From positions 192,001-256,000 of the forward strand of contig JAVLKG010000001.1 of NCBI GenBank assembly GCA_032128875.1: 64,000 bases of DNA, written 5' to 3'. A program made the position numbers and the translations under genes. Below, piece by piece: positions 32,444 to 44,560 of the stretch. A model generated the notes under the pieces. The model saw only the letters and a list, made by a program, of their open reading frames with translations, was not told the origin of the DNA and searched no databases. Position 1 is the stretch's first letter, and each line of letters begins with the position of its first letter. This DNA is from Candidatus Melainabacteria bacterium 17Bon1m (GTDB taxonomy: Bacteria > Cyanobacteriota > Vampirovibrionia > Obscuribacterales > Obscuribacteraceae).

Positions 32444-32825
32444 CGCTTCCTCTACCTTTGCAGCGGGGGTGAAACAGCATATATAGGTTTATATGACTCC
32501 AGTAATGTGCCACACGCGGGATGTCAATCTAATCACCCTCCCACATTAATTGCAGAAATCTTCGCGATTGTTACCTGGGCAACGTTTTGGTTCTTATCCC
32601 TTTCAATTTGGCTTCTTATTCCCTTCGATTTTGCAGTCAAGTGGATACCGAATTACTTGAGAGGTAGGTACTCTCTAGAGCTGGATTAAATGCCGGTTTC
32701 GGCGAATTTAATCGGTAAATTCTGCAACAAAACGCCTATTTGCAAAGCAGTTAGTACAAATTAGTACTAAAATCCCTGAATTGCCGTTGGGCAAGATTAG
32801 CCCCCTCACCGAAGAACGGAAAAAG

Positions 32826-33683
32826 ATGAAACTCAAACAACTGCCTTTAGCCCTCGCACTTGGAGGTGCACTTATGGTTAGCACTGCTGCATTTGCAGAT
32901 ACTGCAAAAATTGAATTCCCTGCAGCCAGCCCGCTCTGCACTATGAAGCAGCGTGTTGGTTTGACTGATGTCGAAATCTCCTACTCCAGACCCGGAGTCA
33001 AAGGGCGCAAGATTTTCGGCGACATGATTCCTTATGGGAAGGTTTGGCGCACTGGCGCTAACGCCGCGACAAAGCTGGTCTTCAGCACGGACGTCAAGCT
33101 CAATGGGCATGATGTTCCTGCCGGTACTTACGCTCTGATGACCATCCCAGGCAAAGACGAGTGGACTGTCATCATCAACAAAGGCTCCGAGCAATGGGGC
33201 AGCTACAAGTATGACGAGAAGAACGATGTCGTCCGCTTCCAGGTCAAGCCAGTCGAGCTTGCTCATTCATTGGAAACGCTGACCTTCGATATCGAGAACA
33301 TCAAAGACGAGTCTGCTGACCTTGATTTGGTCTGGGCAACAACAAAGGTGCCGATCAAATTGGAAGTCAATTTTGTTGATAAGTTGACGAAGCAAATCGA
33401 AGCTGAAATGTCTTCGGACAAAAAAGAAAAGCCGTACTTCCAAGCTGCTAACTTCTGGTTCAACCACGACAAAGATTTGCAGCAAGCGAAGAAGTGGGTC
33501 GACGCGGCGGTTGCCGAGAAAGACGCTTTCTACATCGTGCACTTGCAAGCTAAGATTCTCGCCAAATTGGGCGACAAGGCTGGTGCATTGGCAGCGGCTA
33601 AGCACTCGACCGAACTCGCACAAAAAGCGAATGACACTGCATACGTGAAGCTCAATGAGACTCTCATCAACAGCTTGCAATAA
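32826..33683 (+). CDS. DUF2911 domain secreted protein with TPR-like C-terminus
   Basis: ASP...QRVGLTDVEISYSRPGVKGRKIFG...PYGKVWRTGAN; signal peptide from ATG 32826. Confidence 0.88.
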   Translation: MKLKQLPLALALGGALMVSTAAFADTAKIEFPAASPLCTMKQRVGLTDVEISYSRPGVKGRKIFGDMIPYGKVWRTGANAATKLVFSTDVKLNGHDVPAGTYALMTIPGKDEWTVIINKGSEQWGSYKYDEKNDVVRFQVKPVELAHSLETLTFDIENIKDESADLDLVWATTKVPIKLEVNFVDKLTKQIEAEMSSDKKEKPYFQAANFWFNHDKDLQQAKKWVDAAVAEKDAFYIVHLQAKILAKLGDKAGALAAAKHSTELAQKANDTAYVKLNETLINSLQ

Positions 33684-33689
33684 GGTGCG

Positions 33690-36314
33690 ATGAGGTTGTC
33701 CATTAGTTGGTCACTGAATTCGAAAGAGTGGCGTTGTGCATTCATCTCTTTGATGTGCGCGACGTCACTCTTTTCGAGTGTAGCGCAGAGCTATGCGGCG
33801 GTGCCCGAGGGAAGCTCGACCAACGCTGTTTCAAAAACTGTTTCTAAATCCAGCTCTGCTTTAGGAGTCAAGATGAAGAGTGATTCTCCCCAAGCGATTC
33901 TGCACGAACTGGAAAGTTTTCGGCAGATGGGCAGCGTGTTGTACATTGCCGCCCATCCCGACGATGAAAACACCGAGTTGCTTGCGTATCTAGCACGCGG
34001 GCGTAATTACCGAACCGCATACTTGTCTTTGACTCGTGGCGATGGTGGGCAGAATGTTTTGGGTGCAGATCTTGGTGCGAAACTCGGCGTCGCTCGCACG
34101 CAGGAGCTTTTGGCTGCAAGGCAGATTGATGGTGCGCAGCAATTTTTCTCGCGCGCCAAAGATTATGGATTTTCAAAAAACTATCTGGAAACGATGGAAG
34201 TCTGGGACAAGCAAGAAGTGCTGTCCGACATTGTTCGCGTGATTCGAACCTTTCGACCTGATGTGTTGATTACGCGCTTTTCGCCCAGCCCTGGTGGAAC
34301 TCACGGGCACCACACAACTTCCACAATTTTGGCGATGGAAGCATTCAAACTCGCCGGTGATGCAAATGCTTTTCCCGAGCAGAAGTTGGAGCCGTGGCAA
34401 CCGAAGCGAATCTTCTGGAATGCCTCTATCTGGCAGAAAGACAAAATAACTGACCAGACGGTTTGGAAGATTGATGCAACAGGCAATGATCCTGTTTCTG
34501 GTGAGAGCTTCCATTCAATCGCGAGCGAGAGCCGGGCGATGCACAAGACCCAAGGGTTTGATACTTTCAAGCTGCCTGGTGGTAATGGTGAAAAACGGCT
34601 TGAGTCCTTTCAGCTTTTAGATGGTGCCTCTATCGAGAAAGACATCATGGATGGTGTCGACACGAGTTGGCATCGTGTCAATGGTGGCGATGCAATTGAG
34701 AAATCAGCCAGCGAGATAATCGCGAAATTTGATATCAATGATCCAGCAAAGAGCGTTGGGGCTGTGTTGGAATTGCGCAAGCAACTGGCACAACTAATGC
34801 AGACGCCGGCTAATAGCAATGATGTTGTCTTAAAAGAGAAAGCCGAGCTTCTTGATCGTATTTTGCGGTCATGCATTGGATTGAGTTTTGAGACCACAAT
34901 TGCAAATGCGGAGATGGTTCCTGGCGAGTCAATGAAGATGCACTTGTCGGCATGGCTTAAGTCGAAATTACCTGACAAATTGCAAGTAAAATGGCTTGAT
35001 GTGCAGTTTCCCAAACTAGGCGCTAGCGACAGCACTCTTAAGGTGAATCAGACACTTGATCAACCGAGAAGCGTAGAAACTACAAAAATTCTCCCTGCAC
35101 AAACACCTCTAACTCAGCCATATTGGTTGACTTCCGAAGGGACGCCGGGAATGTTTCATGTTGATGTTCCTGCTTTGATCGGAACCGCCGAGAATTCTCC
35201 TGCGTTCCCCGTGTATGGAACCTTCCAAATTGCGGATCAAACATTGGTAGTTCATGATGAACCGCTGCAAGTGTCTACGGATTCGTTGGGTAACCGCATT
35301 CGACGTCGACTTGATGTGATACCGCCAGTCTCGTTGCATTTCCTCTCGGACGTTATAGTGATGAAGCCGGGAATGACGCGGTCTGTGGAAGTAGAGTTAC
35401 GTTCGTCGCGCGCTAATACAAAGGGCTCTCTGGAGCTGGAAGCACCTTCAGATTGGAAGATAGATCCGAAGAAGCAAACATTCAATCTAGCTGATGTGGG
35501 CGAAACCGCGAAGTTCACTTTCACTGTCACAGCGCCGAATAATGCAGCGACAACTAAGATAACGGCAAGTGCAGAAGTCGATGGCGAGCGCTATCACAAT
35601 CAAAGACAAATCGTGAGCTATGCACATTTGCCGCGCCAGCTCTTGCAACCACCCGCGGTGATGAATGCTGTCAGCTTTGATCTTGCTACTCGCGGACATA
35701 CTATTGGATACCTGCCTGGTGCCGGTGACAGTCTTGTGGAAAACCTGCAGCAGATGGGCTACGCAGTGAAAATCCTCGATGATGCCAATCTAACGGCTAA
35801 GGAGCTCGAGGGGGTCGATGCCGTAGTTATTGGTGTAAGAGCATTCAATGTGCGCAACAACATTGCTAAGGCTATGCCTGCGCTCTTCACTTATATTGAA
35901 AATGGTGGCACGGTAATTGCGCAATACAATCGGCACGACAAATTGAAGGTCGAGAAAATAGCGCCATACGAGTTGCACATTTCCAATGATCGTGTCACCG
36001 ATGAAAAGGCTCCCGTAACATTCCTTGCGCCGGACAATCCTATTTTGAATACGCCAAACAAAATCACGAATGCTGACTTTGAAGGCTGGGTTCAGGAGCG
36101 CGGATTATATTTCCCAAATCAATGGGATGAACACTTTACGCCAATCTTGGCCTTCAGCGACAAGGGCGAACTTCCGCATGCCGGCGGTCTTCTTGCCGCT
36201 CAGTACGGCAAGGGTTATTACATCTACACGGGGCTCGGATTCTTCCGACAGCTTCCAGCAGGCGTACCGGGTGCGTATCGCTTGTTTGCGAATATGGTTT
36301 CGCTAGGGAAGTAG
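33690..36314 (+). CDS. Large secreted PIG-L/LmbE family deacetylase with Ig-like (NEW3-type) and GATase-like C-terminal domains
   Basis: AHPDDE, TRGDGGQN, ARTQELLAAR, HGHH; C-terminal GWVQERGLY...FFRQLPAGVPGAYRLFAN. Confidence 0.88.
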   Translation: MRLSISWSLNSKEWRCAFISLMCATSLFSSVAQSYAAVPEGSSTNAVSKTVSKSSSALGVKMKSDSPQAILHELESFRQMGSVLYIAAHPDDENTELLAYLARGRNYRTAYLSLTRGDGGQNVLGADLGAKLGVARTQELLAARQIDGAQQFFSRAKDYGFSKNYLETMEVWDKQEVLSDIVRVIRTFRPDVLITRFSPSPGGTHGHHTTSTILAMEAFKLAGDANAFPEQKLEPWQPKRIFWNASIWQKDKITDQTVWKIDATGNDPVSGESFHSIASESRAMHKTQGFDTFKLPGGNGEKRLESFQLLDGASIEKDIMDGVDTSWHRVNGGDAIEKSASEIIAKFDINDPAKSVGAVLELRKQLAQLMQTPANSNDVVLKEKAELLDRILRSCIGLSFETTIANAEMVPGESMKMHLSAWLKSKLPDKLQVKWLDVQFPKLGASDSTLKVNQTLDQPRSVETTKILPAQTPLTQPYWLTSEGTPGMFHVDVPALIGTAENSPAFPVYGTFQIADQTLVVHDEPLQVSTDSLGNRIRRRLDVIPPVSLHFLSDVIVMKPGMTRSVEVELRSSRANTKGSLELEAPSDWKIDPKKQTFNLADVGETAKFTFTVTAPNNAATTKITASAEVDGERYHNQRQIVSYAHLPRQLLQPPAVMNAVSFDLATRGHTIGYLPGAGDSLVENLQQMGYAVKILDDANLTAKELEGVDAVVIGVRAFNVRNNIAKAMPALFTYIENGGTVIAQYNRHDKLKVEKIAPYELHISNDRVTDEKAPVTFLAPDNPILNTPNKITNADFEGWVQERGLYFPNQWDEHFTPILAFSDKGELPHAGGLLAAQYGKGYYIYTGLGFFRQLPAGVPGAYRLFANMVSLGK

Positions 36315-36315
36315 C

Positions 36316-38196
36316 ATGAACGGGCTGGACATATTCGTACTCATAGTGTCCATCTGCGCAATCGCATTGTATGGGGTCTGGCACACCAGAAATCGTCGCG
36401 ACCTCGATAGCTATCTCAAAGGAAGTGACCACACACCTTGGTGGGTAATCGGTATATCGGTAATGGCTACACAAGCCAGCGCGATCACCTTTTTGTCCAC
36501 CCCAGGGCAAGGATATCTTGGCGGATTGAGCTTCCTGCAAGTTTATTTTGGTGTTCCGATTGCGATGATAATCATCGCCGCCTGTTTTCTGCCGATCTTT
36601 CACAAACTACATGTCTATACAGCATACGAATATCTGGAGAAGCGTTTCGATCGCAAGACGCGTTTGTTCGGCGCAGGGCTGTTTCTCTTGCAGCGGGGCA
36701 TTGGAGCCGGTCTGACTATTTATGCTCCTGCGATTGTTTTGTCGACAGTATTCGGTTGGTCCTTGCCGCTGACCATCGTAGCGTGCGGACTTATCGCTAC
36801 TGCCTACACCGTATTTGGTGGTACCGATGCGGTTACTGTTACACAGAAGTATCAGATGGCTGTGATTTTTCTTGGTATGACGACTGCTGCAGGCATTTTG
36901 CTCTCGAAGCTTCCTGATGGTCTGACTTTCTTCGATGCGATGAATGTTGCCGGCGGATTTCAAAAGCTGAACGCTGTCAATTTGTCGCCAAGTTTGCACG
37001 AGCGGTATACGGTGTGGTCGGGATTGCTCGGCGGAACCTTCTTGATGCTGTCTTATTTTGGCGCAGATCAATCGCAGGTTCAGCGCTACCTTTCTGGGGA
37101 TTCTCTGCGTGAAAGCCGGCTTGGCTTGATGTTTAACGCGGTCTGCAAAATTCCCATGCAACTGTGTATCTTGATGCTTGGTGTGATGATGTTCGTGTTT
37201 TATCAATTCGAGCGACCGCCGCTGTTCTTTGACTCCGCTGCAAATAATTTTCTCGAGAGTCATCGAGGCGATGCTGTAGTTGCTAAGCAATTGGTTGGGT
37301 ATGAAGCCGAATTCAATAATCTGCACGATCAGGGCAAGCAGCACCTCATAAGTTGGTTGGCTGCGAAGCGCCGAGGAGATGAAAGCACTGCGACCGCTGA
37401 GTTTGTCAGTGCGGCAGTGACCCAGCAAGCAGGTGAGAAAGTGCGGTTGGCGGCGGCAAATGAGGTGACGCAGCTTCAAGCGCAAGGTGTTAGTGCTAAC
37501 ACTGCAATTGAGAAATCCACTGCAACTGAGAGATCCATTGCAACTGAGAGATCCATTGCAACGAAGGAGACTTCTGGCACGCCTTCTGAAAAGCCAGACT
37601 CCAAGAAAAGTAAATCTGTCTCTGCCACCAGTGCGGACTATGTTTTCATAACATTTATATTGCGTGAGCTCCCGCATGGTGCCATTGGTTTGTTGGTCGC
37701 GGCGTTCTTTGCCGCTGCTCTTTCGTCTAAGGCTGCGGAGTTGAATGCGTTAGGAACCTGTACCACCATAGACTTCTATCGATTGTTGATAAAACGCGAC
37801 GCCACCGATGCTGAGTCATTAGTGGCGTCGAAGCTTTTTACGGCTTTCTGGGGCGTTGTCGCTGTCTTCATTGCACTTTACGCACAGCTCTCTGAGAATC
37901 TCATTCAAGCGGTAAACATCCTTGGGTCAATTTTTTATGGTGTGCTGCTTGCGCTGTTCATCGTTGGTTTTTTCTTAAAGCGTGTTGGTGGCACCGCCCT
38001 ATTCTGGTCGGCGGTGATATCACAAACGCTGGTTTGCGTCTTGTACTTCAACCTGACGATTTCGTATCTCTGGTATCCGCTGATTGGTTGTGGCACCTGC
38101 GTGGTGATTAGTCTGCTTCTTCAGCTTGTTTTTGGTAACAACAATAAAAGCCGCAAGGATGCGGCCGTTCGTGGCGAGGTAGTGGAGGCGGCATGA
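36316..38196 (+). CDS. Sodium:solute symporter (SSS) family protein
   Basis: SVMATQASAITFLSTPG, TAYEYLEKRFD, GADQSQVQRYL; many TM helices. Confidence 0.92.
   Translation: MNGLDIFVLIVSICAIALYGVWHTRNRRDLDSYLKGSDHTPWWVIGISVMATQASAITFLSTPGQGYLGGLSFLQVYFGVPIAMIIIAACFLPIFHKLHVYTAYEYLEKRFDRKTRLFGAGLFLLQRGIGAGLTIYAPAIVLSTVFGWSLPLTIVACGLIATAYTVFGGTDAVTVTQKYQMAVIFLGMTTAAGILLSKLPDGLTFFDAMNVAGGFQKLNAVNLSPSLHERYTVWSGLLGGTFLMLSYFGADQSQVQRYLSGDSLRESRLGLMFNAVCKIPMQLCILMLGVMMFVFYQFERPPLFFDSAANNFLESHRGDAVVAKQLVGYEAEFNNLHDQGKQHLISWLAAKRRGDESTATAEFVSAAVTQQAGEKVRLAAANEVTQLQAQGVSANTAIEKSTATERSIATERSIATKETSGTPSEKPDSKKSKSVSATSADYVFITFILRELPHGAIGLLVAAFFAAALSSKAAELNALGTCTTIDFYRLLIKRDATDAESLVASKLFTAFWGVVAVFIALYAQLSENLIQAVNILGSIFYGVLLALFIVGFFLKRVGGTALFWSAVISQTLVCVLYFNLTISYLWYPLIGCGTCVVISLLLQLVFGNNNKSRKDAAVRGEVVEAA
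37501..37570 (+). repeat. In-frame 18-bp tandem repeat in the SSS loop
   Basis: TGCAACTGAGAGATCCAT-type units encoding TAIEKS-TATERS-IATERS-IATKET. Confidence 0.85.
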
Positions 38197-38996
38197 CTTC
38201 TCCTGTTATATGTTTTGGGCAACAACCGTGTGGATTTTATCCGAAGCGGTTTTTGGTATCGAAGATTTTTACTGCACGGAGATTGCAGAAAGAGATCGGC
38301 GGCAAGATAGTATTTTTCTATCATGACAGCGATCACGATCCACGTGAGACGCGCACCATTCTGCGCCACCGCACTACAAATGATCCTGCGCAGCTCAACT
38401 TCACTTTCGAGAACAAAACGCAGCGAAAGTTCTCACCACTTTATGCAAAACGAATTCCAGGCGGTTGGCAAGAAAAGACGATTTTGCAGTTACCAAATTA
38501 CATCGACCACCCATTGATCAATATTTTCAAAGCGACGCACGTAAGTAACGTTGCTGATTTCTGCTTAGAAATGTATCGAGGCATGGGGCTGCTTGAAGGT
38601 ATTGAAGTTGTCAGATCCGGTAGCCCTGAATTCCGTCGCAGCGCCTGTGATATTACTGATTTCTATGTGGATGTTAATTACGACAACGAGATCGTCCGCG
38701 CGCGTGTTGCCGGAAACGTTCTAAAGTTGCATGAAGGCGGCAATGCATTTATCGAGCTGCCTATGGTGCCGTTTTCGAAAGAACAAATCAATCCGACGCG
38801 CGATACTCGTTTGCGCTGGATGCAGTCTGTGATTCATTGCACGCATTATATTGCGGGGGCGGGAGAGCAGGCATATTTGCACAAGGACGAAGCGCCTGAA
38901 ATTGAATTCGTAACACGGGATGAAATAGATTTGTCCGATGAGGCTTACGTAGAACTGCCATCGTCTAGTAAGAAGGAGGAAACTATTGAACATTAG
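38193..38996 (+). CDS. Compact BshC-like protein (putative bacillithiol cysteine-adding enzyme)
   Basis: FGQQP, VFFYHDSDHD and NPT...YIAGAGEQAY parallel the BshC motifs TGQQ, VFW..EDHD and SPN...YVGGPGE.AY; immediately upstream of bshB1-bshA. Confidence 0.65.
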   Translation: MTSPVICFGQQPCGFYPKRFLVSKIFTARRLQKEIGGKIVFFYHDSDHDPRETRTILRHRTTNDPAQLNFTFENKTQRKFSPLYAKRIPGGWQEKTILQLPNYIDHPLINIFKATHVSNVADFCLEMYRGMGLLEGIEVVRSGSPEFRRSACDITDFYVDVNYDNEIVRARVAGNVLKLHEGGNAFIELPMVPFSKEQINPTRDTRLRWMQSVIHCTHYIAGAGEQAYLHKDEAPEIEFVTRDEIDLSDEAYVELPSSSKKEETIEH

Positions 38997-39052
38997 TGAT
39001 ACCATCTTCTCAAGCGTTGTGTCGGATTTTGAGATTTCAGAGGAGGAGAGAA

Positions 39053-39772
39053 TTGAACGAAATTAGTTCTGCTCCTGTGTTGGCTTTTGGTGCGCATCCC
39101 GATGACATTGAGTTCGGCTGTGGAGGCGTGCTTGCGGTCGAGTCGCGCAAGGGACGTAGTGTACATTGCGTAATTTGCTCATTGGGCGAAGCCGCTTCCA
39201 ATGGCACTCCGGAAGGACGCCGTGCGGAATCTATCGCGGCGACCGAATGCCTCGGTGCAACTGTAGAATTCGTTGCGCTGGATGGTGACGCGAAATTAGA
39301 AATTCGCGCAGAACACACCCTCAAACTGGCTGAAGTAATTCGTCGTGTCCGACCATCTACTGTATTAGCGACAACTTGCTTTGAAAATCAACATCCCGAT
39401 CACTGGCGACTGGGAAAGATTGTTCGCGATGCTGCTCGCGTTGCGAGATATGGTGGATTAAAGGATGTGCAAGGCGAACCCCACGCAATCGGGCAGTTGT
39501 TCTATTACGCCGTAACGCCAGAAGGCGAACCTAACAATATTCATCCGATTTTGATCGATGTTTCTTCCTCAGACGTTGTGAATTCGTGGACTGCCGCAAT
39601 GGGCGCGCATGCCTCACAAGGTGCGACGCGCAATTACATTGATTTGCAATTGAATCGGGCTAGGGTTTGGGGTGCGCGCGCCGGCGTCGAATATGCTATG
39701 GCGCTGTTCCCGAATGATCCGCTGATGTTTGAATCGCTCGCTCAGGCGGGTAAAGGAGCGCGAAATTTCTAG
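39053..39772 (+). CDS. bshB1: BshB1-like N-acetylglucosaminyl-malate deacetylase (PIG-L family)
   Basis: AFGAHPDDIEFGCGG, GEAASNGTPEGRRAE, HPDH. The likely start is TTG 39053 after AGGAGG (the ORF track starts at 38996). Confidence 0.8.
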   Translation: MNEISSAPVLAFGAHPDDIEFGCGGVLAVESRKGRSVHCVICSLGEAASNGTPEGRRAESIAATECLGATVEFVALDGDAKLEIRAEHTLKLAEVIRRVRPSTVLATTCFENQHPDHWRLGKIVRDAARVARYGGLKDVQGEPHAIGQLFYYAVTPEGEPNNIHPILIDVSSSDVVNSWTAAMGAHASQGATRNYIDLQLNRARVWGARAGVEYAMALFPNDPLMFESLAQAGKGARNF

Positions 39773-40963
39773 GTGTCAAAGAATAATTCCAAATCGGATG
39801 CATTGAGAATTGGTATCACGTGCTACCCCACGGTTGGTGGCAGCGGTGTGGTGGCGACTACGCTTGGAATTGAACTTGCTCAGCGCGGACACGAGGTTCA
39901 CTTCATCAGCTATGAACGCCCATTTCGCTTGCCCGAAAATTCCTCTCGAATACATTTCCACCAGGTCTGTGTCAACGACTATGGTTTGTTCAAATATCCC
40001 GACTACACCTTGCCACTTTCCGTAGCAATGGCTAGTGTCAGTTGCAAGCACAATCTCGACATCTTGCACGTACACTACGCGGTACCGCACGCGACCGCAG
40101 CTTTGCTTTCGCGCTGCATGTTGCCTCCCGACAAACAACCTCGCATCGTCACAACATTGCACGGCACCGACACGACATTGCTAGGCGCAGACCCAGGGTA
40201 TGGTCCGGCAATTCACCACGCATTAATTCAGTCCGATGCGGTGACTACAGTGTCCGATTGGTTGAAATCAGAAACCAAACGAGTGATTGGATTTGACGGG
40301 GCAATGGAAGTTATTCACAACTTTTACGAGCCTGGCAAACCGTCGCGTACACGCGAAGCTGTTCGTCAGGACCTGGGAGTTGGTGATGAAGTCTTGATAC
40401 TTCACTCGTCCAACTTGCGACCACTCAAACGCATTGATTTATTGCTTGAATCTGTGGCGAAGATTCGCGACAGAAATTCATTCAAATTGTTGATTTTGGC
40501 GGGTGGTGATTTCAAACAATTCAGTGCCGATGTAAAACGTCTTGGATTGGAAGATCGCATTGTAGTTCGTGAAAACGTTCTGGAGATAGAAGAATACTTA
40601 CAGGCTGCCGACCTCGCTTTGTACACATCGGAAAGCGAGAGCTTTTGCCTGAGTATTTTGGAAGCAATGTTCTTTGGTTGTCCCAGCGTTGCAACGAATG
40701 TCGGCGGAATTCCAGAAGTTATTGATGATGGAGAGACTGGAATACTGGTGCCTTTTGGAAACGCTGATGCAATTGCGGAAGCATTGGAAGACCTGATCTT
40801 GGATAAGGCAAAACGTCAGCGCTTCGGCGAGAATGCTCGCAAGGAAGCGCAGCGTCGATTCTCTGCGGATGCAATCATCCATCGTTACGAAGAGCTGTAT
40901 CGTCGATTGCTTTGCTCGCCGCCATCGGTTGCCGTTGGAGAAGTTGTTGAAGGATGTCGCTAG
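39773..40963 (+). CDS. bshA: N-acetyl-alpha-D-glucosaminyl L-malate synthase (GT4)
   Basis: IGITCYPTVGGSGVVAT.LG, LHVHYAVPHA, TTLHGTD, ESFCLSILEAM. Confidence 0.92.
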   Translation: MSKNNSKSDALRIGITCYPTVGGSGVVATTLGIELAQRGHEVHFISYERPFRLPENSSRIHFHQVCVNDYGLFKYPDYTLPLSVAMASVSCKHNLDILHVHYAVPHATAALLSRCMLPPDKQPRIVTTLHGTDTTLLGADPGYGPAIHHALIQSDAVTTVSDWLKSETKRVIGFDGAMEVIHNFYEPGKPSRTREAVRQDLGVGDEVLILHSSNLRPLKRIDLLLESVAKIRDRNSFKLLILAGGDFKQFSADVKRLGLEDRIVVRENVLEIEEYLQAADLALYTSESESFCLSILEAMFFGCPSVATNVGGIPEVIDDGETGILVPFGNADAIAEALEDLILDKAKRQRFGENARKEAQRRFSADAIIHRYEELYRRLLCSPPSVAVGEVVEGCR

Positions 40964-41055
40964 CAAGGCGCAACCGTCGCTAAAAAGCGAGAACTGGTTG
41001 AATGTGCGAACAGTTACAATTGGTTCCTAACTCAGTAGAGGACTTCTAGCAACTA

Positions 41056-41463
41056 ATGGATGACCCTACGGCAGTGAAGATAGATGTTATTGCTGCCGTG
41101 GTGCGTCGCGATGGGAAGTTTTTGGTATGCCAACGCCCGCCCGAGAAAAGGCACGGCAATCTCTGGGAATTCCCAGGTGGCAAGCTAGAACCTGGTGAGT
41201 CATTCCTTGCTGCGGCTCAACGCGAACTTAATGAAGAACTGACTCTAACCGTCACTTCGATTGGTGAAATTCGGTTCAAATCGCAAGATCCCGGCTCAAA
41301 TTTCGTCGTCAATTTTGTTGATGTTGTCGCTGACGGCATTCCACAAGCAATCGAGCACAGTCAAGTTGATTGGTTCACCGTGAGTGAATTGCTCACGCTG
41401 CAACTCGCTCCAAGCGATCGACAATTTGCCGAGTTTCTCGTCCGCGATAACCTTTACGGTTAA
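41056..41463 (+). CDS. NUDIX hydrolase (MutT-like)
   Basis: WEFPGGKLEPGESFLAAAQRELNEE Nudix box. Confidence 0.92.
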   Translation: MDDPTAVKIDVIAAVVRRDGKFLVCQRPPEKRHGNLWEFPGGKLEPGESFLAAAQRELNEELTLTVTSIGEIRFKSQDPGSNFVVNFVDVVADGIPQAIEHSQVDWFTVSELLTLQLAPSDRQFAEFLVRDNLYG

Positions 41464-41466
41464 AGC

Positions 41467-41525
41467 GTGGGGGCGCGTTGCACGCGCCCACTATTTGTGA
41501 GGGCGATGCATTGTATCGCCCCTAC
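41467..41525. repeat. Inverted pair of GTAG-family REP-like palindromes
   Basis: GTGGGGGCGCGTTGCACGCGCCC (41467-41489) and GGGCGATGCATTGTATCGCCCCTAC (41501-41525). Confidence 0.75.
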
Positions 41526-43339: not shown

Positions 43340-44560
43340 ATGCTAACTAAAAATCGAAATGAAGTCCTGTCGCTGCTGCTGACAGGCGCACGTTTGATCG
43401 ATATGCCGACCCTCGAACAAGGTTATGCTTCATCCGCCCGTTTGAGCACACCATTGCACAAAGTGCTTGTGATGCTGGGCTTCGTTAGTCAGTTCAAGAT
43501 GGACCGAGTGCTGCACGCAGAGACAATGATTCGCGTTCACGAGCTGTCGCCGGATCTGGCGGTGAAAGCACTGCGCATTGCGACAACGCAACAGCTCACA
43601 TTCGAGGAAGCGCTCGATGCGCTGGGCGACGAACACAAGAAAACGCAATTGATGCCAACTGCGTCCAACGAGATCACGAATCTTTTGGTCGAAGCAGGCT
43701 GCATCAACAACGAGCAAATAGGGCGAGCGCTCAAAACTTCGTTGGAGAACGGAATGCAAATGGGACGCGTACTTGTCTTTCATCGCGACGTCACCAGTCA
43801 GGTAATGAAGGCTGCGATTGCTTGCTGCATGTTGATGCAAGAAGAGAAGATTGGCTTGGCGTCAGCAGTTGAAGCGGTGAAGCATGTGCGCAAAACAAAT
43901 CAATCTGTAGAACAAGTGATGTTCCAACACAATATTTATCACGAAGAGCCAGGTCAGGGACCGAGGATTCATGAGCTTTTCGCAATGGCAGGTTTTGTGT
44001 CAGATACCGACTTGATGGAATGTCTCGAATTGCATGTATTGCGTGGACGGCAGATTGGTCAACTCTTTATTGAACAAGGTTTGATTAACAGTACCGTTTT
44101 GGAAAATGCGATTGTATTGCAAGGCATGGTCGCAAGTGGGGCCATCAAGGCGTATCATGCTGCAGAAGCCTTGAAGACGTCGTACAACAAAGAAGTTTCG
44201 ATCTATCAAGCTCTCGGCGAACTAAACCCCCCGGCATTTCCAGCAACGCCGAATCTCACTTTCGGTGAATTGCTTCTCTCTGCGAATTTGGTCAAGCGCG
44301 AAACGTACGACAGCTATTTCGAAGGACTCGAATTGTGTTCTCGGCAGATGGCGAAGAAACTTCTCGCCGCCGGAACGATCAACGACAAGACATGCGTCAC
44401 TGCATTGCGTGTGTTATCGCTGAACAACGAAGGATTTATCTCGAACAAAGATGCAGTCGAGATCCTTCGGCACGTGGTGTCATACGACGCGAACCTCGAC
44501 GAACAGCTTGCAGCCTGGGCTCACTTCGCACCAAATCGGATGCAATGGATCTGGCGGTAG
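43340..44560 (+). CDS. Tandem MshEN-like repeat protein, paralog A
   Basis: Repeats resembling RLGxxLxxxGxIxxxxLxxxLxxQ, e.g. RQIGQLFIEQGLINSTVLENAIVLQ and ITNLLVEAGCINNEQIGRAL. Confidence 0.75.
   Translation: MLTKNRNEVLSLLLTGARLIDMPTLEQGYASSARLSTPLHKVLVMLGFVSQFKMDRVLHAETMIRVHELSPDLAVKALRIATTQQLTFEEALDALGDEHKKTQLMPTASNEITNLLVEAGCINNEQIGRALKTSLENGMQMGRVLVFHRDVTSQVMKAAIACCMLMQEEKIGLASAVEAVKHVRKTNQSVEQVMFQHNIYHEEPGQGPRIHELFAMAGFVSDTDLMECLELHVLRGRQIGQLFIEQGLINSTVLENAIVLQGMVASGAIKAYHAAEALKTSYNKEVSIYQALGELNPPAFPATPNLTFGELLLSANLVKRETYDSYFEGLELCSRQMAKKLLAAGTINDKTCVTALRVLSLNNEGFISNKDAVEILRHVVSYDANLDEQLAAWAHFAPNRMQWIWR

What the first reader, a model, noticed from the sequence alone, without database searches (positions are those of the whole stretch)
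38193..40963. Bacillithiol-type operon with a half-size BshC-like protein
Seen: a 267-aa ORF directly upstream of bshB1-bshA retains three BshC-like motifs (GQQ, DHD, Y(I/V)xGxGExAY). Established: canonical BshC is roughly twice this length and includes a long coiled coil. Inference: a minimal BshC that would be annotated as hypothetical. It could be useful for studying the poorly understood cysteine-ligation step, and it implies BSH-like thiol production in this lineage.
Basis: partly seen in the sequence, partly recalled or inferred. Interest (0 to 1): 0.7.

Follow-up and report, generated by a model that had tools for sequence, protein, structure and literature searches.

The report
Half-size BshC-like ligase in bacillithiol-type operon
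A small, unannotated protein next to two bacillithiol-synthesis genes is a stripped-down relative of the pathway's third, poorly understood enzyme, and it stands in for that enzyme in soil and water bacteria that had no predicted protective thiol.

Summary
The 267-aa ORF (38193..38996, +) lies directly upstream of a BshB1-like deacetylase and a BshA that scores over its curated cut-off.

- **No family match:** It matches no Pfam, NCBIfam or PDB sequence.
- **Fold:** The nearest solved structure is B. subtilis BshC (4wbd, Z 16.7). Class I LysRS follows at 12.8, and all others score 8.0 or less.
- **Profile comparison:** Alignment to a BshC family gives 92% probability (E 4-5e-7), with GQQ, DHD..E, R and GxGExxY in register.
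- **What is missing:** It lacks BshC's N-terminal ~87 residues and the whole C-terminal coiled-coil half.
- **Phyletic pattern:** All 42 genomes with BshA among 107 of the window's own order carry it. In 301 Verrucomicrobiota, the 22 genomes with BshA hold either this protein (20) or canonical BshC (2), never both.
- **Larger module:** The unit has six genes: secreted DUF2911, secreted 874-aa PIG-L protein, Na+/solute symporter, mini-BshC, BshB-like, BshA.
- **Against plain bacillithiol:** Genomes with this protein lack Bdr (0 of 10) and BrxC (0 of 3). Both canonical-BshC genomes have them.

Verdict: a real, undescribed minimal BshC family. It probably performs the cysteine-adding step, but the product is unproven.

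The parts
32781..33683 (+). DUF2911 protein, 300-aa ORF. The likely start is the Met at residue 16, followed by a signal-peptide-like N-terminus. It is the first gene of the conserved module.
   Evidence: PF11138 at E 9e-57. A homolog lies upstream of the PIG-L gene in 66 of 80 related loci.
33690..36314 (+). 874-aa exported PIG-L family protein ('PIGL874'): signal peptide, PIG-L deacetylase/amidase domain (residues 84-218), NPCBM_assoc domain (561-629) and an unassigned C-terminal region.
   Evidence: Pfam and NCBIfam. Nearest PDB sequences are MshB, E 5e-6. Present in 73 of 80 loci, in 43 of 107 genomes of the order (the genomes with the mini-BshC, minus one), and in 21 of 22 BshA-positive and 0 of 279 BshA-negative Verrucomicrobiota. 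Hydrophobic N-termini.
36316..38196 (+). Na+/solute symporter (SSS/SLC5 family), 626 aa. Its stop overlaps the start of the mini-BshC gene by 4 nt.
   Evidence: PF00474 and TIGR00813 at 226 bits. Nearest solved relatives are SMVT, the sialic-acid symporter 5nv9 and SMCT1. Present in 78 of 80 loci.
38193..38996 (+). Mini-BshC ('X'), 267 aa. A stand-alone class-I-aaRS-like Rossmann core homologous to BshC residues ~88-360, with motifs GQQ (9-11), DHD..E (47-52), R206 and GAGEQAY (222-228).
38996..39772 (+). BshB1-like PIG-L deacetylase, 258-aa ORF. Relatives align from residue ~15-28, so the true start may lie downstream.
   Evidence: PF02585 at E 2e-20. TIGR04001 at 132.6 bits, below the 182.5 cut-off. 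Present in 73 of 80 loci.
39773..40963 (+). BshA (N-acetyl-alpha-D-glucosaminyl L-malate synthase type GT4), 396 aa.
   Evidence: TIGR03999 at 404.4 bits, above the 273.7 cut-off. Full-length matches to solved BshA of B. anthracis, B. subtilis and S. aureus, E 1e-84 to 1e-88.
41056..41463 (+). NUDIX hydrolase, same strand, 92 nt downstream. It is not part of the conserved module.
   Evidence: PF00293. A homolog is found in only 3 of 80 loci.
41471..41489 (+). G+C-rich hairpin after the NUDIX gene, possibly the end of the transcription unit. It is also a dispersed repeat.
   Evidence: 8 pairs, 7 G-C, weak T tail. The same 24-28 nt recur at other places in contigs of the same sample (table 8).

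Best explanation
The 267-aa protein ('X') belongs to a large, unannotated family of minimal BshC homologs. It keeps only the class-I-aminoacyl-tRNA-synthetase-like Rossmann core of BshC with its signature residues. It has lost, or never had, the N-terminal ~87 residues, about 45 residues of the middle insertion, and the C-terminal coiled-coil dimerisation half.

It takes the place of BshC in a bshA-bshB-type pathway:
- BshA makes GlcNAc-malate from UDP-GlcNAc and L-malate.
- The BshB-like deacetylase exposes the amine.
- X then joins an amino acid, most likely L-cysteine, to GlcN-malate. By analogy with MshC and class I synthetases this would go through an acyl-adenylate. The result would be bacillithiol or a close variant.

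Shown here: homology, fold, motif conservation, operon structure, and the phyletic pattern of co-occurrence and complementarity.

Inferred: the substrate, the adenylate chemistry and the identity of the product.

The three upstream genes (secreted DUF2911, secreted 874-aa PIG-L protein, Na+/solute symporter) travel with the pathway. They probably form an extracytoplasmic processing and uptake arm for the same or a related GlcN(Ac)-malate compound. That part is conjecture.
For: **Fold**
- The AF2 model has pLDDT 74.5 and pTM 0.76.
- Foldseek's top PDB hit is 4wbd BshC, E 7.2e-9, prob 1.0.
- VIA-align gives 4wbd Z 16.7, rmsd 3.2, 236 aligned residues, model 1-256 against chain 82-521.
- In an independent scan of 48,161 representative chains, 4wbd again ranks first at Z 16.7. 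Class I LysRS is next at 12.8, and everything else is at or below 8.0.

**Sequence**
- hhalign of A3 against A2 gives 92.4-92.7%, E 4-5e-7.
- Of 45 BshC columns conserved at 90% or more, 32 fall in the aligned part. Of these, 14 are the same residue and at least 90% conserved in the X family: G92, Q93, Q94, G96, K107, A115, D136, H137, D138, E141, R336, G352, E355, Y358.

**Selection**
- The family has 6,912 clusters at 90% identity, nearly all about 256 aa.
- 72 columns are at least 90% conserved.
- At least 554 species genomes carry it.

**Context**
- X lies with BshB and/or BshA in 79 of 80 loci.
- The genes overlap or abut in the window.

**Phyletic pattern**
- In the window's order, BshA is over its cut-off in 42 of 107 genomes, and all 42 have X. 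The 2 further genomes with X have contig-edge breaks. None of the 63 genomes without X has BshA over the cut-off.
- In 301 Verrucomicrobiota, BshA is over the cut-off in 22 genomes: 20 with X and 2 with canonical BshC.
- Canonical BshC was found in 0 of 36 X genomes tested.

**No competing thiol pathway**
- No glutathione synthetase scores over its cut-off in 5 X genomes.
Against: - BshC's own cysteine-ligase activity has never been shown in vitro (PMC4360819, passages read). 'Works like BshC' therefore rests on genetics done in other organisms.
- X matches no BshC model (TIGR03998, PF10079), even at E 10.
- X lacks 13 of the 45 conserved BshC positions, including the C-terminal P..QER..N block.
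- Bdr/YpdA is over its cut-off in 0 of 10 X genomes, against 2 of 2 canonical-BshC genomes of the same phylum.
- BrxC/YtxJ is found in 0 of 3 X genomes, against 2 of 2 canonical ones. BrxA/B is found in 0 of 5.
- The cluster's BshB is below its family cut-off: 132.6 bits here and 110.9 in G416, against 207-212 bits in canonical clusters.
- BshA scores 381-423 bits in X genomes, against 451-461 in canonical ones.
- Some clusters lack a BshB gene altogether. In G419 the best BshB1-like hit is 61 bits.
- These differences allow a product other than bacillithiol.
- Most of the genomes are MAGs, and related genomes are not independent observations.
Confidence: 0.65

Rival explanations
1. X has the same ancestry and chemistry as BshC but gives a different product. 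It would ligate another amino acid, or act on another GlcN-hydroxy-acid, and make a compound that is not bacillithiol and may not be a redox-buffer thiol. The secreted PIG-L protein, DUF2911 and the symporter would handle that compound outside the cell.
For: - Bdr is absent in 0 of 10 and BrxC in 0 of 3 X genomes, while both canonical-BshC genomes of the same phylum have them.
- BshB is below its cut-off and BshA scores lower than in canonical clusters.
- A secreted and transport arm is tightly linked, which canonical bsh operons do not show.
- Only 14 of the 32 aligned conserved BshC positions are kept.
Against: - BshA passes the equivalog cut-off for GlcNAc-malate synthase and aligns full-length to solved BshA enzymes.
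- X and BshC are exactly complementary among BshA-positive genomes: 22 of 22, and 42 of 42.
- The PIG-L-plus-symporter pair also occurs in a canonical-BshC genome, G667, so it is not specific to X.
- Thermus and Deinococcus are cited as making bacillithiol (PMC6282198, passages read), yet they do not ring for PF06491 (BrxA/B), which rang only in B. subtilis among the 14 controls.
Confidence: 0.22
2. X is a class-I-synthetase-like or nucleotidyltransferase-fold enzyme with no part in the bsh pathway. Its place beside bshB and bshA would be a coincidence or reflect a shared regulon.
For: - The second-best structural match is class I LysRS at Z 12.8-13.0.
- No BshC sequence model recognises X.
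Against: - BshC stands about 4 Z units above LysRS and more than 8 above all other chains.
- The BshC-specific motifs align in register.
- Gene order is kept across two phyla in 79 of 80 loci.
- X is gained and lost together with BshA.
Confidence: 0.05
3. X is a decayed, non-catalytic remnant of BshC, either a pseudoenzyme or a regulatory subunit. The ligation would be done by an unrecognised enzyme.
For: - X lacks half of BshC, including the conserved C-terminal positions.
- BshC itself is inactive in vitro in published attempts (PMC4360819).
Against: - Conservation is very strong: 64-88% identity between two phyla, and 72 columns at least 90% conserved.
- The retained residues are exactly the invariant BshC motifs.
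- There are no frame breaks in 62 of 64 genome matches.
- Nothing else in the module has a ligase fold.
Confidence: 0.04

Closest known systems
BshC (YllA), bacillithiol biosynthesis cysteine-adding enzyme; TIGR03998, Pfam PF10079 + PF24850; structure 4wbd
   Same: - The Rossmann core with class-I-synthetase-like topology is the best structural match in the PDB (Z 16.7, 236 residues).
- The motifs GQQxG...K, DHD..E, R and GxGExxY are kept in register.
- X is encoded with bshA and bshB, and is found only in genomes that have BshA.
   Different: - X is half the length, about 256-267 aa against mostly 500-580 aa.
- It has no N-terminal ~87 residues, a shorter middle insertion, and no coiled-coil domain with its conserved P..QER..N block.
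- Identity to 4wbd is about 14%.
- BshC HMMs do not recognise it.
- Its genomes lack Bdr and BrxC.
- It sits in an operon with a symporter and secreted proteins.
MshC (mycothiol cysteine ligase, 3c8z) and cysteinyl-tRNA synthetase
   Same: - The catalytic fold is the same class I Rossmann fold.
- The presumed chemistry is analogous: an ATP-dependent amide bond between cysteine and a glucosamine amine. This chemistry for MshC is recalled, not tested here.
   Different: - Structural similarity is much weaker: MshC Z 6.3 and CysRS Z 7.3.
- No sequence match to the PDB was found.
Class I lysyl-tRNA synthetase catalytic domain (1irx)
   Same: It is the second-best structural neighbour: Z 12.8-13.0, 204 aligned residues.
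   Different: - Sequence identity is only 12-13%.
- X has no anticodon-binding domain.
- The genomic context points to small-molecule synthesis, not translation.
Canonical bsh clusters in Verrucomicrobiota (G490, G667): methyltransferase - bshC - bshB1 - bshA
   Same: They hold bshB and bshA next to the ligase gene, in the same phylum as most X carriers.
   Different: - They have full-length BshC at 347-354 bits, BshB1 over its cut-off, a SAM methyltransferase upstream, and Bdr and BrxC elsewhere in the genome.
- In G667 the PIG-L and symporter pair lies on another contig. In G490 it was not found.

Membership tests
BshC (TIGR03998 / PF10079+PF24850) | Scores over the curated cut-off of the family's sequence models | tested here: not met
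   No Pfam or NCBIfam match was found, in Pfam even at E 10. A TIGR03998 six-frame search of the window's genome at E 10 hits only coiled-coil noise at other loci.
BshC (TIGR03998 / PF10079+PF24850) | Rossmann core of BshC type (class-I-synthetase-like fold with connecting peptides) | tested here: met
   4wbd is the top hit by Foldseek (E 7.2e-9) and by VIA-align (Z 16.7, rmsd 3.2, 236 aligned). The model has pLDDT 74.5 and is weaker at residues 50-110.
BshC (TIGR03998 / PF10079+PF24850) | Invariant core motifs GQQxG..K, (E)DHD..E, R, GPGE..Y | tested here: met
   hhalign gives 92.4-92.7%. 14 of the 32 aligned columns that are at least 90% conserved in BshC are identical and at least 90% conserved in the X family.
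BshC (TIGR03998 / PF10079+PF24850) | C-terminal alpha-helical coiled-coil dimerisation domain (PF24850) with conserved R379 and P498..Q503-E504-R505..N508 (P0343 numbering) | tested here: not met
   The alignment ends at BshC 360 and X 230, and X ends at 267. The 9 conserved C-terminal BshC positions have no counterpart. Only 7 longer relatives exist, all singletons fused to neighbouring genes, none with a BshC C-terminus.
BshC (TIGR03998 / PF10079+PF24850) | N-terminal region of ~87 residues (conserved R54, L61) | tested here: not met
   X residue 5 aligns to BshC residue 88.
BshC (TIGR03998 / PF10079+PF24850) | Occurs with bshA and bshB and is required for bacillithiol | tested here: inconclusive
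   Co-occurrence and synteny are met. A requirement for the thiol cannot be tested with these tools.
BshA (TIGR03999) | Equivalog cut-off and full-length similarity to solved BshA enzymes | tested here: met
   404.4 bits against a 273.7 cut-off. Matches 3mbo, 2jjm, 5d00 and 6d9t at E 1e-84 to 1e-88 over residues 9-380.
BshB1 (TIGR04001) | Equivalog cut-off | tested here: not met
   132.6 bits against a 182.5 cut-off. BshB1 is the best-scoring family and the PIG-L domain is present. Canonical clusters in Verrucomicrobiota score 207-212 bits.
Bacillithiol system as a whole (synthesis plus Bdr/Brx redox partners) | Presence of Bdr (TIGR04018) and a bacilliredoxin (TIGR04019 or PF06491) | tested here: not met
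   Bdr is over its cut-off in 0 of 10 X genomes. BrxC is found in 0 of 3 and BrxA/B in 0 of 5. Both canonical-BshC Verrucomicrobiota genomes have Bdr and BrxC.

The most novel reading that the evidence does not exclude
The six-gene module is a self-contained system for a low-molecular-weight thiol, unlike the Firmicute paradigm. A minimal BshC makes bacillithiol or a new Cys-GlcN-hydroxy-acid thiol without the coiled-coil domain. A periplasmic arm (DUF2911, an 874-aa PIG-L amidase/deacetylase and a Na+ symporter) cleaves and re-imports the compound or its conjugates, much as gamma-glutamyl transpeptidase does for glutathione. Redox recycling would use enzymes other than Bdr and Brx. The module would have spread between Verrucomicrobiota and non-photosynthetic Cyanobacteria. 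This would give Verrucomicrobia their first predicted thiol and identify a bacillithiol-linked extracytoplasmic pathway that also exists in canonical producers.
Probability: 0.3. Interest if true: 0.85.

Novelty: new variant of a known kind. Interest (0 to 1): 0.72.

Why it matters
- **BshC mechanism:** BshC is the one step of bacillithiol synthesis whose chemistry has never been reconstituted (PMC4360819, passages read). A natural 256-aa version that keeps only the motif-bearing core marks the N-terminal and coiled-coil parts as dispensable for whatever the core does. It also offers a smaller, monodomain protein for assays and structures.
- **Missing thiols:** Hiras et al. 2018 (PMC6282198, passages read) state that Verrucomicrobia have no documented or predicted low-molecular-weight thiol, and they call for study of genomes with partial pathways. 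This family completes such a partial pathway in at least 554 species genomes.
- **New bsh-linked genes:** The secreted PIG-L protein and symporter co-occur strictly with bshA. This points to an unrecognised extracytoplasmic branch of bacillithiol-type metabolism.
- **Annotation:** More than 6,900 protein clusters are now labelled 'hypothetical'.

Tried and rejected
- **Sequence searches of X:** Pfam, NCBIfam and PDB sequences, as a single sequence and as a profile, gave nothing meaningful. The best were a designed repeat protein at E 0.1 and a formylmethanofuran dehydrogenase subunit at E 0.9.
- **Representative-library search:** A profile search of 1.84 billion representatives gave 253 hits, mostly fragments. 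None of the 150 listed is of BshC length. The other 103 were not shown.
- **Wider phylum:** A sample of 301 genomes from the window's phylum found X only in the window's genome. The family is confined there to one family of one order.
- **Fusions:** The search for longer or fused forms found 7 singletons joined to the symporter or the glycosyltransferase. I read these as gene-call or frameshift artefacts, not as Rosetta-stone evidence.
- **Expression:** Three libraries recorded as RNA hold the region, but as 22-39 kb contigs at flat depth from the same sample as a DNA run. This does not show transcription.
- **Promoter and terminator scan:** Counts were at or below those of shuffled sequence. 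Only the hairpin after the NUDIX gene is notable.
- **BshC structure paper:** VanDuinen et al. 2015 is not held. Residue-level comparison with its ADP and citrate sites was therefore not possible. What I say of that structure comes from the review PMC4360819.
- **Possible metal site:** The family's invariant C7, C124 and H218 and near-invariant C216 might form a Zn site like that of CysRS and MshC. This could not be tested without model coordinates, so it is dropped as unsupported.
- **Tree of X:** The careful search did not finish and only the quick tree was used. The split between the two phyla is short and weakly supported (0.02, SH-aLRT 81). No direction of transfer is claimed.
- **Earlier notes of this scan:** None matched.
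- **Literature:** Searches for a short or truncated BshC, for bacillithiol with Verrucomicrobia, and for bacillithiol with Melainabacteria terms found no description of this family. Only listings were seen, apart from PMC4360819 and PMC6282198, where I read passages. Data Set S1 of PMC6282198, which lists pathway-positive genomes, was not opened.
- **Not run:** No complex-prediction job was sent, because the report claims no binding.

Full report

Yes. One search lists three abutting ORFs on the + strand:
- 38193..38996 (267 aa, called X below)
- 38996..39772 (258 aa)
- 39773..40963 (396 aa)

X's translation carries GQQ at residues 9-11, DHD at 47-49 and YIAGAGEQAY at 219-228.

The 396-aa product is BshA at equivalog level (TIGR03999, 404.4 bits, cut-off 273.7). 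It aligns end to end with the solved BshA enzymes of B. anthracis, B. subtilis and S. aureus (E 1e-84 to 1e-88).

The 258-aa product has a PIG-L domain, and BshB1 is its best family. It stays below that family's cut-off, however (132.6 against 182.5 bits).

X itself matches nothing by sequence:
- No Pfam family, even at E 10.
- No NCBIfam family.
- No meaningful PDB sequence, either alone or as a profile.

**2. What is X?**

X belongs to a large, tight family.
- There are 6,912 clusters at 90% identity, almost all about 256 aa. All are unnamed or labelled 'hypothetical'.
- At 50% identity there are only 253 representatives, mostly fragments.

An AlphaFold2 model built on 30 family members has pLDDT 74.5 and pTM 0.76.
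- Foldseek against the PDB puts B. subtilis BshC (4wbd) first, at E 7.2e-9 and probability 1.0. Class I lysyl-tRNA synthetase comes next at 6e-4.
- VIA-align gives 4wbd Z 16.7 (rmsd 3.2, 236 residues, model 1-256 against chain 82-521) and LysRS Z 13.0. Everything else scores 8.2 or below.
- A search that does not depend on Foldseek, over 48,161 representative chains, gives the same order: 16.7, then 12.8, then 8.0 or below. CysRS scores 7.3 and MshC 6.3.

To test the motifs I needed canonical BshC sequences. I found two in Verrucomicrobiota genomes and collected their relatives. I then aligned 26 of them (A2) against 26 diverse X members (A3).
- hhalign gives 92.4-92.7% probability, E 4-5e-7, over 222-224 columns. 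X residues 5-230 align to BshC residues 88-360, in the numbering of the Thermincola potens protein P0343.
- GQQ aligns with GQQ, HDSDHDPRE with EDHDxxE, R206 with R336, and GAGEQAY with GPGEIAY.
- Of 45 BshC columns at least 90% conserved, 32 lie in the aligned part. Fourteen of those are the same residue and at least 90% conserved in X.
- The other 13 lie in parts that X does not have: 2 in the N-terminus, 2 in gaps, and 9 in the C-terminal half, including P498..Q503-E504-R505..N508.

X is therefore a homolog of the BshC core only. It lacks the first ~87 residues, about 45 residues of the middle insertion, and the coiled-coil domain (PF24850).

Longer forms are essentially absent. Seven singletons are joined to a neighbouring gene, and I read them as artefacts.

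**3. Does a full-length BshC exist elsewhere?**

None was found.
- No TIGR03998 match in the window's genome, which is 93% complete.
- None over the cut-off in 41 relatives, of which 11 carry X.
- None in 5 further genomes with X, including a closed chromosome.
- None in the 20 Verrucomicrobiota with X from the phylum sample.

The control genomes (B. subtilis, Thermus, Deinococcus) did give matches in these searches.

**4. Distribution and co-occurrence**

A scan of one genome per species found at least 554 genomes encoding X. The best 80 are Obscuribacterales/Melainabacteria and, in the majority, Verrucomicrobiota, at 64-88% identity. A few have odd taxon labels.

In the window's own order:
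- X is in 44 of 107 genomes, all in one family.
- BshA is over its cut-off in 42 of 107, and all 42 carry X.
- The two remaining X genomes have X at the end of a 2.9-kb contig (G008) or a BshA fragment at a contig start (G373).
- None of the 63 genomes without X has BshA over its cut-off.

In a sample of 301 Verrucomicrobiota:
- X is in 20 genomes.
- Canonical BshC is in 2, G490 and G667.
- BshA is over its cut-off in exactly those 22.

Every BshA-positive genome thus has one ligase type, and never both. This is the strongest argument that X fills the BshC step. Related genomes are not independent, and most are MAGs. Even so, the patchy distribution within genera (for example 4 of 15, 3 of 8 and 1 of 6) implies repeated joint gain or loss.

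**5. The unit is larger than the finding**

tblastn of the window's proteins against the 80 loci shows a conserved order:

| Gene | Loci with a homolog (of 80) |
|---|---|
| DUF2911 protein | 66 |
| 874-aa PIG-L protein | 73 |
| Na+/solute symporter | 78 |
| X | 80 |
| BshB-like | 73 |
| BshA | 73 |

Many of the misses are at contig ends. The NUDIX gene downstream is in only 3 of 80 loci.

In the window the genes abut or overlap by 1-4 nt from 33690 to 40963.

The first two proteins appear to be exported.
- The DUF2911 protein (PF11138, E 9e-57) has a signal-peptide-like N-terminus.
- The PIG-L protein has one too. Hydrophobic N-termini are seen in both phyla.

The symporter's nearest solved relatives carry carboxylate substrates: SMVT, a sialic-acid symporter and SMCT1.

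The PIG-L protein follows the same phyletic pattern as X.
- It is in 43 of 107 genomes of the order, which is the set with X minus one 65%-complete genome.
- It is in 21 of 301 Verrucomicrobiota: the 20 with X plus G667, which has canonical BshC.
- In G667 it sits next to a symporter homolog on another contig than bshC.

The pair is therefore tied to bshA-type pathways in general, not to X alone. Similar 811-857-aa PIG-L proteins are commonest in Acidobacteriota and Bacteroidota (a lead only). Those phyla are predicted bacillithiol producers according to PMC6282198.

**6. What argues against plain bacillithiol**

| Feature | Canonical-BshC genomes (G490, G667) | Genomes with X |
|---|---|---|
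| Ligase | BshC, 347-354 bits | X |
| Upstream gene | SAM methyltransferase | symporter |
| BshB1 (cut-off 182.5) | 207-212 bits | 132.6 and 110.9 bits |
| BshA | 451-461 bits | 381-423 bits |
| Bdr/YpdA | 2 of 2, at 423-428 bits | 0 of 10 over cut-off |
| BrxC/YtxJ | 2 of 2, at 110-113 bits | 0 of 3 |
| BrxA/B | not searched | 0 of 5 |

Some clusters with X have no BshB gene between X and BshA (L036, L040, L043, L044, L048, L073). In one such genome the best BshB1-like hit anywhere is 61 bits.

Glutathione synthetase is also missing from genomes with X (0 of 5 over its cut-off). They therefore have no other recognised thiol pathway among those tested.

**7. Mechanism**

Most likely (0.65), X catalyses the third step of the pathway: amide formation between an amino acid, probably L-cysteine, and the amine of GlcN-malate.
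- An adenylate intermediate is inferred from the class I synthetase fold and from MshC. That chemistry is recalled, not tested here.
- Homology, motif retention, operon membership and complementarity with BshC are shown.
- Substrates and product are inferred.
- The secreted arm may process and re-import the compound or its conjugates. That is conjecture.

The main rival (0.22) keeps the chemistry but changes the product. Minor rivals are an unrelated enzyme (0.05) and an inactive remnant (0.04). Both fit poorly with the conservation and the phyletic pattern.

**8. Comparison and membership**

X works like BshC, as far as anyone knows how BshC works. It is not a member of TIGR03998/PF10079 as those families are defined: it fails their models and lacks two of the three structural parts. 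It is best described as a distinct, shorter sister family within the BshC superfamily.

**9. Novelty**

No family model covers X (Pfam copy of 2025; NCBIfam release 20). My literature searches found no description of it.

Hiras et al. 2018 state that Verrucomicrobia have no documented or predicted thiol (passages read).

I rate X a new variant of a known kind, with interest 0.72.

**10. Limits**
- The structure is a prediction of middling confidence between residues 50 and 110.
- Genome samples are partial, and the genomes are mostly MAGs.
- The tree of X is a quick one.
- Transcription was not shown.
- The BshC structure paper could not be read.

Noticed in passing
window 32781-38196: Three genes upstream of the finding belong to the same conserved module: a secreted DUF2911 protein, a secreted 874-aa PIG-L protein and a Na+/solute symporter. 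The PIG-L protein occurs only in BshA-positive genomes: 21 of 22 positive against 0 of 279 negative Verrucomicrobiota, and 43 of 107 in the window's order. It also occurs in one genome with canonical BshC.
   Followed up: partly
window 41462-41489: The G+C-rich hairpin after the NUDIX gene recurs at several other places in contigs of the same sample (table 8). It looks like a dispersed REP-like repeat that may double as a terminator.
   Followed up: no
L036, L040, L043, L044, L048, L073 (related loci): In these clusters BshA follows X directly, with no BshB gene between. The genome of L036 (G419) has only a 61-bit BshB1-like hit elsewhere. Which enzyme deacetylates there is open.
   Followed up: partly
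L034, L045, L049, L050, L056, L065, L074, L078: MAGs labelled Acidiferrales, Bifidobacteriaceae, Baltobacteraceae, Binatia, Acidoferrum or Dongiaceae carry the module. Their X proteins nest among Verrucomicrobiota rows. This suggests mislabelled or mis-binned contigs, or transfer.
   Followed up: no
X family tree (L020-L099 plus window): X proteins of the two phyla differ little: 64-72% identity, with a separating branch of 0.02 at SH-aLRT 81. One Obscuribacterales-labelled row (L033) sits on the Verrucomicrobiota side. This fits transfer of the whole module between phyla, but the direction is unresolved.
   Followed up: partly
L100 672-1469; L101 723-1481: In the two canonical Verrucomicrobiota clusters a SAM-dependent methyltransferase lies just upstream of bshC and overlaps it. 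It is a candidate N-methyl-bacillithiol synthase. No such gene is in the X module.
   Followed up: no
window 36316-38196 (protein residues ~300-470): The symporter carries a low-complexity insert of about 130 aa between its two halves, including a tandem ATERSI repeat. Pfam and PDB matches cover the first ~300 residues best.
   Followed up: no
window 43340-44560: A 406-aa protein has an MshE-related cyclic-di-GMP-binding motif (NF053729, 66.6 bits, cut-off 38).
   Followed up: no
window 32700-41500 in runs X2-X4: Libraries recorded as RNA-Seq hold 22-39 kb contigs across the region at flat depth, identical to the DNA run of the same sample. Carried-over DNA is likely, so they say nothing about expression.
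   Followed up: yes
X protein residues 7, 124, 216, 218: C7, C124 and H218 are invariant and C216 nearly so across the diverse family alignment. None is conserved in canonical BshC. A metal site or a structural role is possible, but this was not tested.
   Followed up: no
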